Of a stretch of 64,000 nucleotides of DNA, positions 33,406 through 55,336 are shown piece after piece. The notes under the pieces are model-generated. The model had not been told where the DNA came from. It ran no database searches and saw nothing but the letters and a program-made list of their open reading frames with translations. Every line of letters begins with the position of its first letter. Within the stretch, counting starts at the first letter, position 1. Made by a program: the position numbers and the translations under genes. This DNA is from an uncultured Metamycoplasma sp. (GTDB taxonomy: Bacteria > Bacillota_I > Bacilli_A > Mycoplasmatales > Metamycoplasmataceae): the NCBI GenBank assembly GCA_964435585.1, contig CAYSZT010000003.1:14870-78869 (forward strand), written 5' to 3'.

Positions 33406-34185
33406 ATGAAAAAATACATTGATTTACACTGCCATCCTTTTAAAGAATATTTTGAATCCCCAATGGATGTAATTAATCAAGCTAAAAAAAAGGGAGTTAG
33501 TAAAATATTTCTGGTCGGAACAGATTTAAATAATTCAAAAGAATCAATCGAGTTAGCTAAAAAGGATGAATCACTATTTCCGATTATTGGTATCCATCCA
33601 AATGATTCTTGAAACGAGCGAATAATAGATGATTTAGAAAAGCTCGTCGATGAAACAGTGGTTGGTATTGGTGAAGTTGGTCTTGATTATCACTATGAAG
33701 AAAGCCCATTAAAAGAAATGCAAGAAAGATGTTTTAGAAAACAAATTGAAATTGCAATTAGAAATAATATTCCTGTCATTGTCCACTCAAGAGATGCTCA
33801 TGAAGATACTTATAGAATAATAAAGGAATATAGAACAAATTTTCCATCTTCAATATTCATTCTTCATTCATATTCTTCAGGTCCTGATTATGTTCAAAAA
33901 TATGTCGATTTAGGTGTCTATTTTTCTTTCTCGGGCATAGTGACTTTTAAAAATGCAAAGGACACTCAAGAAGCTGCAAAATTAGTTCCATTAGACTTAA
34001 TTTTTTGTGAAACCGATACTCCCTATTTAGCACCGACTCCTCATAGAGGTAGGACAAATTTACCTGAATATGTTGTTGAAACAACTAATTTTATTGCCCA
34101 GTTAAAAGGAATAGGTGTTGAGGTATTATTGGAAAATATTAATAATAATTTAAATAGGTGTTTTCCAAAACATTTCAAAAGCTAA
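33406..34185 (+). CDS. tatD: TatD-family metal-dependent hydrolase/DNase
   Basis: Track ORFs 33406.. and 33658.. share a frame and join across TGA. DLHCH, GEVGLDYHY, VHSRDA, ETDTPYLAP. Confidence 0.9.
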
Positions 34186-34255
34186 TTTGTTAAATGGGAA
34201 GTTTTCAAAGCAAATAATCACATTTTAAATACCAGTAACTTTTGTTGACAAATTT

Positions 34256-34302
34256 ACAAAATCTGGCGTTTTTTTTTTTTTTTTTTTGTAAAATGAATCT
34301 TG
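34256..34302 (+). promoter_or_regulatory. conserved promoter/leader module A: acaaaatcTggcg-T19-g-TAAAAT-gaatcttg
   Basis: A -10-like TAAAAT sits at 34289..34294, directly next to the homopolymer. The flanks are near-identical to the reverse complement of 54829..54871. Confidence 0.55.
34269..34287 (+). repeat. homopolymeric T19 tract
   Basis: I counted 19 consecutive T between ...ctggcg and gtaaaatg. It is the longest homopolymer in the window. Confidence 0.9.
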
Positions 34303-34315
34303 TAAAGGAGAATTT

Positions 34316-34609
34316 ATGGACCAACTAGCATTAGCAAAGTCAATTAAGAAAAAAGGAATTATTGGATTAATTTTAATTTTCACATTGATTGGAGCAATCG
34401 TTACCTTGATTTTAGATATTATTTGTGGTGTAAAAATAATTTCAACTAATTGAAAGAATAAAGAAGTTGAAAATAGCAAGGTAATTTGAGGAGTTTTTTG
34501 TTTTGTAATATTAGGACCAATTTCAGCAATTATCTTTGGTTCAATTGCAGTGAACAAGATGCAAGAAAATTCAGATGGAACAACATATAGTAATATCGAA
34601 GAAGACTAG
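34316..34609 (+). CDS. small two-TM membrane protein (97 aa), family member P1
   Basis: aaaggag RBS and ATG at 34316, with two in-frame TGA(Trp). Shares TNW[KR]N...IWG[VI]F..V.LGPIS..IFGS with the next gene. Acidic C-terminus ...YSNIEED. Confidence 0.65.
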
Positions 34610-34616
34610 AACATAG

Positions 34617-34625
34617 TGCTATAAT
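34617..34625 (+). promoter_or_regulatory. extended -10 (TGcTATAAT) for CDS 34640
   Basis: tgctataat ends 14 nt before the ATG, and no SD sequence lies between them (short-leader transcript). Confidence 0.45.
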
Positions 34626-34639
34626 ATTGTTACCACGAT

Positions 34640-35089
34640 ATGAAAACAAATTTAAGGTCAAAAGCTATTCAAATAAGAACAATGGGAATTATTGGTATTT
34701 GCATTTATGCATTAGATATTGCTCTTTCCATTTTTTTAATTTCTATGTCGACTTCATTTATTAATGGAGGTGTTTCAGAAAACACATTTGGAAATTCATA
34801 TGGTATAGTTTCGATTATTCTTTTAGTTTTCTCTGTGATTCTTTTTGCACTAAACATAACATGCTGTATTAAGATATTAACAACAAATTGAAGAAATGAA
34901 AAATTGAACAACCAAAAGACAATTTGAGGAATTTTTTCAATTGTTCTTTTAGGCCCAATTTCATCTGTGATTTTCGGTTCAATGGCTTCTAAAACACTAA
35001 AGAATCATCAAGACAATAATTATGAACTTAATGTTTCTACTGAAAATAATGTTAGTGAAGAGAATGACTATTATATAGAGGGAGATTAG
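34640..35089 (+). CDS. small four-TM membrane protein (149 aa), family member P2
   Basis: Track ORF 34640..34891 extends across TGA codons to the TAG at 35087..35089. Its C-terminal half is paralogous to P1 and its N-terminal half resembles the C-terminal half of CDS 54137..54814. It ends ...NDYYIEGD. Confidence 0.7.
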
Positions 35090-35092
35090 TAA

Positions 35093-35935
35093 TTAATCTT
35101 CTTTTTTTGAAAAATATTTTTTTGTTTTTTCGATATCCTCATTACTTATTTGGTCAAATCTTTGATTCGTAATTATTCTTTCAATATCTAATATTTGTAT
35201 CTTTGTCTTTTGGTCGAAGATATTTTTTTTGCTATCAAAATTAATTAGCTCATACTTAATATCTTTATCGATCGAAAAATTAATTATTCCATGATATCAA
35301 TAATCATCAATAAGGATTTTAAAAAAATAATTACCAGTATGAGGTTGTTGAACTATTTGCTCTCATCTCATTTTTCCTTCAATTACAGAGACGTCAAAAA
35401 TTAATGGATTAACAAGAAGATTTTTAATAAGATTATATTCACCGAATTCATGCATTTGTTTTATATCTGAAGAAGAAATTTTGACTCCCTCGATTTTTAA
35501 AAGATCTATAACCTCAACATTTGCTTTGGAAATATTTTTAATGTCCTTAGCTGAGCAGGATCTATTCTTACCAAATTTAAAATCATGGCCAACAATATAG
35601 TTTTCAACGTTAAAGTTATTGTCAATGTAATTGATAAAGTCCTTGCCTTCAATGCATTTAAATTCAAAATCAAATTTAGCCACTAAAACAAAATTAAACC
35701 CAATATTGGCAAGATTAGTTAATTTGTTTTCGAGAGTTTGCAATTGAATCTTGTCTTCTTTAATAATTAAAAGAATTCCAATATCGTTATTTCCTGAAAT
35801 TGATTTAGCTTTTTCAAAAAGTTGATAATGACCTCTATGAAAAAGTTCAAACTCACCTAGCAAAAGTGTAGATTTATTTTTAGAAAATTCCTTGCTATTG
35901 ATTTTCTTTTTAATATCGAATTTGTATACATCCAT
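35093..35935 (-). CDS. ribF: FAD synthetase / riboflavin kinase-like RibF (divergent kinase half)
   Basis: Track ORF 35363..35935 extends across TGA to the TAA at 35093..35095. LLGEFELFHRGHYQL is the nucleotidyltransferase motif. It sits downstream of truB, as in many bacteria. Confidence 0.75.
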
Positions 35936-54136: not shown

Positions 54137-54814
54137 TTAATCTTCTTCTATATAGTAATTTGAAGAACTATCTGAAGGACTGTAACTTGAGCTATTTTCC
54201 TTACCATAAGCTTTGTTGAATTGACTTTTTAGAACTAATGCTAATACAAAGATTGCTATTATTGATAATAACTCAATCACTGCCAGGAATTCAACGCTAC
54301 CAATAATAAAATTAAGAATCAACATTAAAACATCTATACCAAAAACACAAATACCAACAATTGATGTTGTGAGCATCAGCCCTTTTAACCTACCGAAATG
54401 TTTTGCTCCTCTTATTATTTTTATAGAGAAGACAAAAATACCAATAATTGCTGTTAGTAATAGAATTGCTACGGCAACTAGATAAATTCAGTAGAAGGCA
54501 TTAAGCTCATAATATCCGTAACTATCACGTTTATAGAATACATCAGTAAATAACAAGATTAGAAACAATATATAAAGTACAAAATATGCAGGAACCAATC
54601 AAGAAAAACCAACTAACCCTTTAATATTTTTTCTCATTGTTTTTGTTTCATTAGAGTCAGAGTTTGTATTTGTTTCTGAATAGTTACTAAATGAAGACGT
54701 TTTACCACTTTTAATTTCATCTAGCTCTTTTTCCATTCTAGCTTTTTCAAGTTCTAGTCTTAATCTTTCGTGTTCTTGTTTAAGTTGTTCATTTGTTTGT
54801 TTTTGTTCACTCAT
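54137..54814 (-). CDS. polytopic membrane protein (225 aa), family member P3, with an N-terminal coiled-coil segment
   Basis: Track ORFs 54137..54376 and 54599..54814 share a frame, and I translated the gap and found it open. The segment TSIVGICVFGIDVLMLILNFI resembles P2 MGIIGICIYALDIALSIFLI. It ends ...SSNYYIEED. Confidence 0.7.
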
Positions 54815-54828
54815 AAAATGACCTCAAT

Positions 54829-54871
54829 CAAGATTCATTTTACAAAAAAAAAAAAAAACGCCGGATTTTGT
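54829..54871 (-). promoter_or_regulatory. conserved promoter/leader module B: acaaaatcCggcg-T15-g-TAAAAT-gaatcttg (read on the minus strand)
   Basis: The reverse complement matches module A (34256..34302) apart from tract length and one flank base. The -10-like TAAAAT lies at 54837..54842 on the minus strand. Confidence 0.55.
54844..54858 (-). repeat. homopolymeric A15 tract (T15 on the coding strand of the downstream gene)
   Basis: I counted 15 consecutive A between ...ttttac and cgccgg. Confidence 0.9.
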
Positions 54872-54889: not shown

Positions 54890-55336
54890 CTAGCGTTTTT
54901 TCTTATAAATTCTTGCTATTTTTCATTTCATTATAAAGACTGTCATGAATTGGATTGCAGGTAAAAATGAAATGATAGCTCAAAATAAAATCCAACCCTT
55001 CATTTCTTTAAGAGGACAAGAGATCACTTTTACCAATAGAATAATTGTTAATATTCAAGAGATAAAAACCAAGATACCAATTATAGACGTAAATATACCA
55101 ATAAGGACAACCCTTATTCTGTGAATTTCATCATTTTTAGTTAATTCGCTAATAATAATGATTATAAGAGAGGCAATAATAATTGTTAACTTTACTAGAA
55201 ACATATTTGATAAACGAACAATGTTTCTATAAATTGGGACTAAAAGAGAAATGGATTGATTTGAAAAGTGACTACTTTTTAAGTTGTCCTTGAATTTATT
55301 GATTTTTCTTTCTCTTCTACTTGCTAATAAACCCAT
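54890..55336 (-). CDS. hypothetical membrane protein (148 aa) downstream of hpt
   Basis: Track ORF 55055..55336 extends across TGA codons to the TAG at 54890..54892 (checked codon by codon). It starts 2 nt after the hpt stop. Confidence 0.55.

What the first reader, a model, noticed from the sequence alone, without database searches (positions are those of the whole stretch)
34316..35089. An undescribed family of small polytopic membrane proteins with a shared acidic C-terminal tag (YYIE[E/G]D)
P1 (34316..34609, 97 aa), P2 (34640..35089, 149 aa) and P3 (complement 54137..54814, 225 aa) are related in a mosaic way. P1 and the C-terminal half of P2 share TNW[KR]N-x8-IWG[VI]F-x2-V-x-LGPIS-x2-IFGS. 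The N-terminal half of P2 (MGIIGICIYALDIALSIFLI) matches the C-terminal half of P3 (TSIVGICVFGIDVLMLILNFI). All three end in a Ser/Asn-rich linker plus an acidic tail: YSNIEED, DYYIEGD and NYYIEED. P1 and P3 carry the homopolymer promoter, while P2 has its own TGcTATAAT promoter. Their size, TM topology and switchable expression are compatible with a pore, holin-like protein, receptor or immunity-type membrane protein, but the function is unknown.
Basis: seen in the sequence. Interest (0 to 1): 0.62.

Follow-up and report, generated by a model that had tools for sequence, protein, structure and literature searches.

The report
Tagged small mycoplasma membrane proteins
Three small membrane-protein genes of an uncultured gut mycoplasma are real, but they belong to two uncharacterised families that share only a slippery poly-T promoter and a seven-residue acidic ending found in this species alone, and what they do is still unknown.

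Summary
The three ORFs are real under the Mycoplasma code (TGA=Trp). P1 and the C-terminal half of P2 are clearly homologous (BLASTP 2e-23). They belong to an unnamed multicopy family, family A. It gave 208 clusters among 1.84 billion representatives and matches in 44 of 399 genomes of the order. It forms tandem arrays and proteins with 2-4 modules. No Pfam or NCBIfam model reaches its cut-off.

P3 is not a demonstrable member. It and a paralog on another contig (P5) form a near-orphan four-helix family, family B. The claimed P2-P3 mosaic match is one marginal helix.

The acidic ending is real and non-random. Four proteins end in IE[EG]D where 0.03 are expected, and the DNA pattern occurs 3 times here against 2 times in 178 other genomes of the family. 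Synonymous codons differ, so conservation is at the peptide level. It is specific to this species: orthologs of both families lack it.

P1, P3, P5 and a fourth small protein share one poly-T promoter cassette. P3 and P5 also share an N-terminal coiled-coil leader with a divergent family A subgroup.

AlphaFold2 gives confident helical bundles with disordered tails and no PDB fold match. Nothing supports a holin, defence or immunity role. The function is inferred only. Interest is moderate.

The parts
34256..34294 (+). Poly-T promoter cassette of P1: acaaaatctggcg, then T19 (34269-34287), then GTAAAAT (34288-34294). An AGGAG ribosome-binding site follows, and the ATG is at 34316.
   Evidence: Read directly. 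The same cassette lies upstream of P3, P5 and the C16 gene. Seven T(>=12)GTAAAAT sites occur in this assembly, none in its reversed control.
34316..34609 (+). P1, 97 aa. A two-helix member of family A: K-rich N-terminus, helix, conserved STNWKNKEVENSK loop, IWGVF..LGPIS..IFGS helix, then an 18-aa tail ending in YSNIEED.
   Evidence: Scores E=2.1e-33 against the family A profile. Orthologs at 70-73% identity in three genomes of the genus lack both the tag and the poly-T tract.
34586..34606 (+). C-terminal tag of P1 (YSNIEED).
34617..34625 (+). TGCTATAAT, a possible extended -10 element for P2, 15 nt before its ATG. No terminator-like site lies between P1 and P2, so read-through from the P1 promoter is also possible.
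   Evidence: Sequence. The terminator scan found none in 34100-35250. Function untested.
34640..35089 (+). P2, 149 aa. A three-helix member of family A. The AF2 model has helices 5-41, 47-81, and 87-102 plus 105-132 (kinked at LLGP). The tail is coil and ends in DYYIEGD.
   Evidence: AF2 gives pLDDT 90 and pTM 0.75. No PDB fold match at E<=0.001.
35066..35086 (+). C-terminal tag of P2 (DYYIEGD).
54137..54814 (-). P3, 225 aa. It has an N-terminal coiled-coil leader (AF2 helix 2-35), a disordered linker, a four-helix family B core (46-203), and a disordered Ser/Asn tail ending in NYYIEED.
   Evidence: Paralog P5 matches at BLASTP 1e-31. AF2 gives pLDDT 75.5 overall and below 50 for the tail. Family B orthologs in G013 and G367 lack both leader and tag.
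54140..54160 (-). C-terminal tag of P3 (NYYIEED).
54837..54870 (-). Poly-T promoter cassette of P3: caaaatccggcg, then T15 (54844-54858), then GTAAAAT (54837-54843).

Best explanation
SHOWN
- P1 and P2 belong to an unnamed multicopy family of small helical membrane proteins (family A), spread patchily across the order.
- Its core is a helix, the loop T[DN][WF]KN.E.N..K, and a second helix reading LWG..S..LLGPI..L.F.
- Members have one or two helices before that loop. They occur as single genes, tandem arrays and proteins with 2-4 modules.
- Their C-terminal tails are fast-evolving and polar or acidic. Some relatives end in a SHOCT domain instead.
- P3 and its paralog P5 have a different, near-orphan four-helix core (family B).
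- That core is fused to a poly-T promoter cassette and a coiled-coil leader, both shared with a divergent family A subgroup (the C16 gene and L019).
- In this species alone, P1, P2, P3 and P5 end in [YN]-[YI/N]-I-E-[EG]-D-COOH. This ending is conserved as a peptide, not as DNA.

INFERRED
- The genes encode membrane-embedded subunits. P1 (with P2 probably riding downstream), P3, P5 and the C16 gene are switched stochastically by slippage in the T13-19 tract that abuts the -10 box.
- The disordered tail presents a short linear motif with a free acidic carboxyl end.
- That motif gives these otherwise unrelated membrane proteins a common partner or a common fate. The partner, the side of the membrane and the physiological role are unknown.
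For: Family A:
- 208 clusters at E<=1e-3, 136 at E<=1e-10; 44 of 399 genomes, 11 of 61 genera, up to 7 copies per genome.
- Arrays and multi-module proteins.
- A distant M. mobile member is named 'Expressed protein'.

Family B and the chimera:
-.

Tag:
- Enrichment.
- It occurs only at the extreme C-terminus.
- Different synonymous codons and stop codons, and no similarity downstream.
- P3 and P5 are 33% identical overall with an unalignable linker, yet keep N-Y-[YI]-I-E-E-D.
- Absent from orthologs.
- Tails are disordered in AF2.

Promoter cassette:
- The same flanks lie upstream of P1, P3, P5 and C16.
- In three other genomes of the genus, T13-T17 tracts with GTAAAAT again precede family A or C16-like genes.
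Against: - No read-level evidence of T-tract length variation or of expression in this organism. Logan unitigs break in the tract only because P1 and P3 share a 31-mer there.
- No partner for the tag was identified.
- K+R-bias topology puts the tail inside for P1, P3 and P5 (even helix number, N-terminus inside) but outside for P2 (three helices, N-terminus inside). A single reader on one side of the membrane is therefore not a clean fit.
- The P1 tag (YSNIEED) is a looser match than the other three.
- The tag was defined after it was seen, so the nominal P-values are optimistic.
- Only one species carries it, so there is no comparative replication.
Confidence: 0.5

Rival explanations
1. The shared ending has no function of its own. 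It spread between the 3' ends of a few genes by recombination, or arose from the general trend to acidic, Tyr/Asn-rich tails in AT-rich genomes. It persists by chance.
For: Family A tails are generally acidic and low-complexity in all lineages. Paralogs elsewhere share tails by plain descent: G443 has DDRFDDWY three times and G001 has N.L.NF three times. The tag occurs in one species only. The P1 version is degenerate.
Against: Expected 0.03, observed 4. The strict six-residue form is expected 1.6e-4 times and observed 3 times. Synonymous sites and stop codons differ while the peptide is kept. It is retained between P3 and P5 although the adjacent linker has diverged beyond alignment. It is shared across cores whose homology cannot be shown.
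Confidence: 0.22
2. Family A proteins are antiparallel (inverted-topology) oligomers, in the manner of small dual-topology transporters or channels. P1 and P2 would be an oppositely oriented hetero-pair, and the multi-module proteins would be fused inverted repeats.
For: By K+R bias the conserved loop is predicted outside in two-helix members (13 of 15) and inside in three-helix members (44 of 57). Thirteen three-helix members have a bias of at most 1 in size. P1 (two helices) and P2 (three helices) are adjacent, 30 nt apart. Proteins built from modules of three helices would alternate orientation from module to module. Tandem arrays are common.
Against: Several genomes carry a single member (G015; G002, G011, G017 and G024), so a hetero-pair is not obligatory. 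P1 orthologs elsewhere have no P2-like neighbour. The topology is predicted only. No fold similarity to SMR, Fluc or other small transporters was found. No conserved intramembrane charged residue is evident.
Confidence: 0.12
3. They are a non-lipoprotein variable surface coat. The hairpin is only an anchor, and the variable acidic tails (exposed in the three-helix majority) shield or vary the surface, as Vlp or Vsa lipoproteins do.
For: They share the poly-T cassette with two lipoprotein genes. The tails are hypervariable and low-complexity, and the genes are multicopy and form arrays. The tail is predicted outside for most three-helix members.
Against: The core hairpin and its loop are strongly conserved, more than an anchor needs. 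The tails are short (15-35 aa) and lack the tandem repeats of Vlp or Vsa. Two-helix members, P3 and P5 are predicted to have the tail inside. SHOCT-like domains, which replace the tail in relatives, are predicted to be intracellular by PMC11237479.
Confidence: 0.12
4. They are holin-like, toxin, or immunity or defence membrane proteins linked to phage or mobile elements.
For: Size, two to three helices and a charged C-terminus resemble holins superficially. Some arrays in another family of the order lie near methyltransferase-like and ATPase-like ORFs, judged by eye from their sequences.
Against: PHROGs gave no match below E=1e-3 and PADLOC none below E=0.018. In the window the neighbours are housekeeping genes: tatD, ribF, hpt and a dprA-like gene. 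Mycoplasmas have no cell wall for a holin-endolysin system to act on (my own knowledge). Gene context across genomes is heterogeneous.
Confidence: 0.04

Closest known systems
Mycoplasma phase-variable surface gene families with a homopolymer in the promoter (M. hyorhinis vlp poly(A) tract; from my own knowledge)
   Same: Several dispersed genes carry one conserved 5' cassette: a homopolymer next to the -10 box plus a conserved N-terminal coding leader. Their C-terminal parts are divergent and low-complexity. Lipoprotein genes in the same genome use the same type of tract.
   Different: The products are polytopic non-lipoproteins without tandem repeats. The homopolymer is 13-19 T directly abutting GTAAAAT. 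Switching was not shown here.
Pfam DUF4190 (PF13828), Pfam DUF5084 (PF16894) and the NCBIfam MYPE2350 family membrane protein (NF040944)
   Same: All are small helical membrane proteins of unknown function. They are the best sub-threshold matches: P1 scores 26.2 bits against DUF4190 and 21.1 bits against MYPE2350, and P2 scores 23.7 bits against DUF5084.
   Different: Every score is below the curated cut-off (35, 50 and 27 bits). The DUF4190 match covers only one helix (30 residues). Only 5 of 21 family members match DUF4190 or MYPE2350 at all.
SHOCT-tailed membrane proteins (PF09851 / PF20612; PMC3581485, PMC11237479)
   Same: Several family A relatives carry a SHOCT domain at exactly the position of the tag-bearing tail. 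This suggests the tail is an interchangeable C-terminal interaction module.
   Different: P1, P2 and P3 have no SHOCT domain. The function and sidedness of SHOCT are themselves unsettled.
C-terminal short linear motifs read through the free carboxylate, such as Hsp70/Hsp90 (I)EEVD bound by TPR clamps (functional analogy, my own knowledge)
   Same: An acidic I-E-E-D-COOH sits at the extreme end of a disordered tail and is shared by unrelated proteins.
   Different: No reader domain was identified. These are membrane proteins. This is an analogy only.
Tripartite C-terminal sorting signals (LPXTG, PEP-CTERM, GlyGly-CTERM; my own knowledge)
   Same: A short shared C-terminal signature on otherwise diverse proteins.
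   Different: No hydrophobic helix or basic cluster follows the motif, because the tag is the very end of the protein. No sortase-like partner is known.

Membership tests
Pfam DUF4190 (PF13828) | HMM score at or above the gathering threshold (35 bits) over the two-helix domain | tested here: not met
   P1 scores 26.2 bits over profile positions 10-39 of 62. P2 scores 14.3 bits. Five of 21 family members match below threshold.
Pfam DUF5084 (PF16894) | HMM score at or above 27 bits | tested here: not met
   P2 scores 23.7 bits over residues 13-80. One of 21 members matches.
NCBIfam MYPE2350 family membrane protein (NF040944) | HMM score at or above 50 bits | tested here: not met
   P1 scores 21.1 bits. 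Five of 21 members match below threshold.
SHOCT domain proteins (PF09851 / PF20612) | A C-terminal bi-helical SHOCT domain | tested here: not met
   No hit in P1, P2 or P3. It is present in other family A members.
Family A (defined here, alignments A1 and A3) | Significant match to the helix / T[DN][WF]KN.E.N..K loop / LWG..LLGPI..F helix profile | tested here: met
   P1 scores E=2.1e-33 and P2 E=3.1e-32. The paralog on contig C14 scores 3e-17 and the C16 gene a marginal 0.0047. P3 gives no hit.
Family A, membership of P3 | Profile or profile-profile match beyond a single helix | tested here: not met
   hhalign aligns 24 columns at 84% probability. P1 against P3 gives z=-0.25, and P2 against P3 gives z=4.0 over one helix.
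Holins | A small protein with 1-4 helices and a charged C-terminus, encoded in a phage lysis cassette or matching a holin family | tested here: not met
   Size and helix number fit. PHROGs gave no match below E=1e-3, and the gene context is housekeeping.
Known anti-phage defence proteins (PADLOC) | Match to a defence-system model | tested here: not met
   Only one hit, at E=0.018, for P2.
Homopolymer-promoter phase variation (vlp type) | A homopolymer tract within or next to the core promoter of the gene | tested here: met
   T19 and T15 tracts abut GTAAAAT 21-22 nt upstream of the ATG.
Homopolymer-promoter phase variation (vlp type) | Tract length varies within populations and correlates with expression | not testable with these tools
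Logan unitigs end inside the tract for a k-mer reason.
Dual-topology or inverted-pair small membrane proteins | Homologous units with opposite or near-zero K+R bias, paired or fused | tested here: inconclusive
   The predicted orientation of the hairpin is opposite in two-helix and three-helix members. This is prediction only, and genomes with a single member exist.
Tripartite C-terminal sorting signals | A signature motif followed by a hydrophobic helix and a basic cluster | tested here: not met
   The tag is the last 6-7 residues and nothing follows it.

The most novel reading that the evidence does not exclude
The ending Y-[YI]-I-E-[EG]-D-COOH is a lineage-specific address tag. It evolved, or was transplanted, at least three times (P1, P2, and the ancestor of P3 and P5) onto phase-variable membrane proteins with two different cores. 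One dedicated, still unidentified partner in this species reads it. Family A tails in general (SHOCT, N.L.NF, DD.W[Y], YYIEED) would then be interchangeable docking modules that co-evolve with species-specific partners. A bolder add-on is that the conserved hairpin works as an antiparallel pair, P1 with P2.
Probability: 0.2. Interest if true: 0.62.

Novelty: new variant of a known kind. Interest (0 to 1): 0.4.

Why it matters
Mollicutes have tiny genomes in which a large share of membrane proteins is still unannotated. This work defines a family that spreads across the order and has no curated model. One likely reason it escaped notice is technical: in P1 and P2 both conserved tryptophans of the core motif are TGA codons, so gene callers using the standard code cut the ORFs into pieces. 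It also shows that in one clade of uncultured mycoplasmas the poly-T promoter switch serves small polytopic proteins as well as lipoproteins. If the species-specific C-terminal tag is truly read by a partner, it would be a rare example of a C-terminal linear-motif address system in a wall-less bacterium. It would also give a handle for assigning function to the family. If not, the result is a clean annotation with modest biological news.

Tried and rejected
Searches that found nothing useful:
- A word-seeded search with P2 found only P2 itself.
- A scan of genome contigs with alignment A1 failed because no stretch was conserved enough. With P1 it returned one unnamed MAG.
- Pfam, NCBIfam, PHROGs and PADLOC gave nothing above threshold.
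- A PDB sequence-profile search hit only designed transmembrane helices, the best at E=8.7e-4.
- Foldseek against the PDB, for both AF2 models, gave no match at E<=0.001 and only generic helical bundles.
- The sigma-70 and terminator consensus scans did no better than shuffled sequence in this AT-rich DNA.

Context and synteny:
- P1 orthologs are not next to tatD or ribF.
- Neighbours of the arrays are heterogeneous.

Other checks:
Logan contigs were uninformative.
- The YIIEED-stop hit in G082 is a soluble 103-aa protein. The FYIIEDER ending in this genome belongs to a 71-aa soluble ORF next to a dnaN-like gene. Both are taken as chance.
- I rejected the idea that the tag is a DNA element such as a terminator or recombination site, because synonymous positions and the downstream DNA differ.
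- I rejected the P2 = P3 + P1 mosaic.

Full report
**1. Observation**

Under table 4 the window encodes three proteins:
- P1, 34316-34609, 97 aa.
- P2, 34640-35089, 149 aa.
- P3, complement 54137-54814, 225 aa.

In P1 and P2 both conserved tryptophans of the shared motif (TNW and IWG) are TGA codons. BLASTP between P1 and P2 gives 2e-23, with 38% identity over 87 residues. Against locally shuffled sequence the score has z=15.8.

P2 against P3 is marginal. BLASTP gives E=0.001 over one helix. With the tags removed z is 4.0, and 2 of 1000 shuffles reach the observed score. P1 against P3 is at chance.

**2. Two families, not one**

A search of all ORFs of the 775-kb draft genome (22 contigs, 28% G+C) gave two groups.

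Family A:
- P1 and P2.
- A 268-aa protein on contig C14.
- Marginally, a 116-aa protein on contig C16.

Family B:
- P3.
- A paralog at the start of contig C8 (P5). Its full 237-aa form and its upstream region were recovered from a Logan contig of run SRR14209496.

Comparing the two family profiles aligns only 24 columns, one helix, at 84% probability. In the family A alignment the N-terminal helix of P2 is simply the first helix of the three-helix members. P2 is therefore not a P3/P1 mosaic.

**3. Family A is real, widespread and unnamed**

Distribution:
- P2 alone finds matches in 20 of the 25 other genomes of the genus, usually several per genome and often in tandem.
- A 21-sequence profile (A1) finds 208 clusters at E<=1e-3 among 1.84 billion representatives, 136 of them at E<=1e-10. 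Some have up to four modules per protein.
- In a sample of the order, 44 of 399 genomes and 11 of 61 genera have matches, with up to 7 copies per genome.

Annotation:
- The named members looked up are 'hypothetical protein' from Metamycoplasmataceae MAGs.
- One is a Mycoplasma mobile protein (AAT28102.1) that UniRef names 'Expressed protein'.
- No Pfam or NCBIfam model reaches its cut-off. The best are DUF4190 (26.2 bits against 35), DUF5084 (23.7 against 27) and the MYPE2350 family (21.1 against 50).

Tails and structure:
- Some relatives end in a SHOCT domain where P1 and P2 have their tails.
- The literature leaves SHOCT function open (PMC3581485). One study predicts that SHOCT-like domains sit inside the cell next to the membrane (PMC11237479).
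- AF2 on P2 with an 80-sequence alignment gives pLDDT 90 and pTM 0.75. The helices are 5-41, 47-81, and 87-102 plus 105-132, and the tail is coil.
- Foldseek finds nothing at E<=0.001.

**4. Family B is nearly an orphan, and P3 and P5 are chimeras**

Outside this genome the four-helix core was found only in G013 and G367. Those proteins have neither the N-terminal coiled coil nor the acidic ending.

The leader of P3 and P5 (MSEQ..EL..ELEKA..EKEL.E.K.G) matches the leader of the C16 protein, at BLASTP 9e-7 and 3.6e-6. The P3 leader also matches the G012 protein L019 at 2e-4, and C16 matches L019 at 2e-7. L019 is a clear family A member.

AF2 on P3 with 4 sequences gives pLDDT 75.5. It shows an N-terminal helix at 2-35, four long helices, and a tail with pLDDT below 50. 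There is no fold match.

**5. The tag**

Four proteins of this genome end in IE[EG]D:
- P1: YSNIEED.
- P2: DYYIEGD.
- P3: NYYIEED.
- P5: NYIIEED.

Evidence that this is more than chance:
- From residue frequencies 0.03 such endings are expected. For the strict six-residue form 1.6e-4 are expected, against 3 seen.
- The strict motif occurs only at the extreme C-terminus of P2, P3 and P5. A looser search added only one weak chance match, in a soluble 71-aa ORF.
- The corresponding DNA pattern occurs 3 times here and twice in the other 178 genomes of the family. One of those two hits is a soluble 103-aa protein. The reversed-pattern control gave 9 hits.
- The four genes use different synonymous codons and different stop codons, and they have unrelated downstream DNA.
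- P3 and P5 are 33% identical overall with an unalignable linker, yet they keep the ending.

Evidence that it is species-specific:
- P1 orthologs at 53-73% identity lack it, as do family B orthologs and all 150 best family A representatives.

The tag is therefore a real feature of this species, conserved at the peptide level and acquired on at least two unrelated cores. It is not a hallmark of either family.

Elsewhere, paralogs within one genome also share tails. G443 has three tandem copies ending in D[DK][RK]F[DG][DN][WN]Y, and G001 has three ending in N.L.NF. Those are close paralogs, so common descent is enough to explain them.

**6. Promoter cassette**

P1, P3, P5 and the C16 gene share the cassette aaaatc[ag]acaaaatc[ct][ag]gc[ga], then T15-19, then GTAAAATGA. 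The assembly holds seven T(>=12)GTAAAAT sites, and its reversed-pattern control holds none. The others precede two lipoproteins, a flavodoxin-like protein and an 84-aa ORF.

The device occurs in four of the 26 genomes of the genus. In the other three it again precedes family A or C16-like genes:
- G001: T13 and T15.
- G012: T15.
- G021: T17.

P1 orthologs in G021, G013 and G007 have no such tract.

P2 follows P1 after 30 nt, with no terminator-like site between them and its own TGCTATAAT.

**7. Topology (prediction only)**

- Members with a long charged N-terminus or linker (L019, the C14 protein, L064) must have the hairpin loop outside and the tail inside.
- By K+R bias, 13 of 15 two-helix members fit that arrangement.
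- By the same measure, 44 of 57 three-helix members have the N-terminus inside, which puts the conserved loop inside and the tail outside.

P1, P3 and P5 would therefore have cytoplasmic tags, and P2 an external one. This weakens a model with a single reader. It raises an inverted-pair model, which genomes with a single member argue against.

**8. What it is not**

- PHROGs gave no match below E=1e-3 and PADLOC none below E=0.018.
- The neighbours in the window are housekeeping genes: tatD, ribF, hpt and a dprA-like gene.
- Gene context in other genomes is heterogeneous.

**9. Verdict**

The most defensible reading has three parts:
- An undescribed family of small membrane proteins spread across the order (P1, P2).
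- A near-orphan second family (P3, P5).
- Links between them, in this species, through a shared slippage-prone promoter cassette, a shared leader, and a species-specific acidic C-terminal peptide.

Function and mechanism remain inferred. I could not verify the host.

Noticed in passing
window 54890-55336 (-): P4 is a 148-aa membrane protein lying between hpt and the P3 promoter cassette. It has no paralog in the genome and no Pfam, NCBIfam, PHROGs or PADLOC hit. It appears to be an orphan.
   Followed up: partly
genome contigs C1:114000-114018 (-), C2:73091-73109 (+), C10:22507-22525 (-), C14:12830-12848 (-), C16:494-512 (-): Five further T13-T17 plus GTAAAAT cassettes lie outside the window. 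They precede two lipoproteins (359 and 590 aa), a flavodoxin-like 192-aa protein, an 84-aa ORF and the 116-aa C16 membrane protein. In G001, G012 and G021 the same device also precedes a protein resembling PTS EIIB, a MATE-like transporter, an AAA-like membrane protein and other small membrane proteins.
   Followed up: partly
P1 W46 and W58; P2 W84 and W96 (window 34451-34453, 34487-34489, 34889-34891, 34925-34927): In P1 and P2 both conserved Trp residues of the family A motif are TGA codons, and matches in relatives typically contain 1-3 TGA. Gene calls made with the standard code truncate these ORFs. Representative hits of 56-79 aa look like such fragments, which helps explain why the family is poorly represented and unnamed.
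   Followed up: partly
L047 (G443:C68) 1315-2914; L053, L062 and L065 (G001): Family A paralogs within other genomes share their own C-terminal endings. G443 has ...DDRFDDWY, ...DRFGNWY and ...DKFDDNY. G001 has ...NDNLANF twice and ...SNQLNF. Many representatives elsewhere end in DD.W or EP[IV][IV]. Tails characteristic of a lineage may be a general trait of the family.
   Followed up: partly
L051 1-43, L052 1-44, L033 1-62: Logan unitigs of run SRR14209496 end inside the poly-T tracts of P1 and P3. The cause is that the two cassettes share T15-GTAAAATGAATCTTG, a repeated 31-mer. Contig C8 of this assembly likewise starts just inside the P5 gene. L052 differs from the window by a synonymous change in codon 2 of P3 (AGC against AGT).
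   Followed up: yes
window 34225-34557 (-) and 34705-35016 (-): Antisense ORFs of 110 and 103 aa overlap P1 and P2. They are mirror images of hydrophobic coding sequence and are not supported as genes.
   Followed up: no
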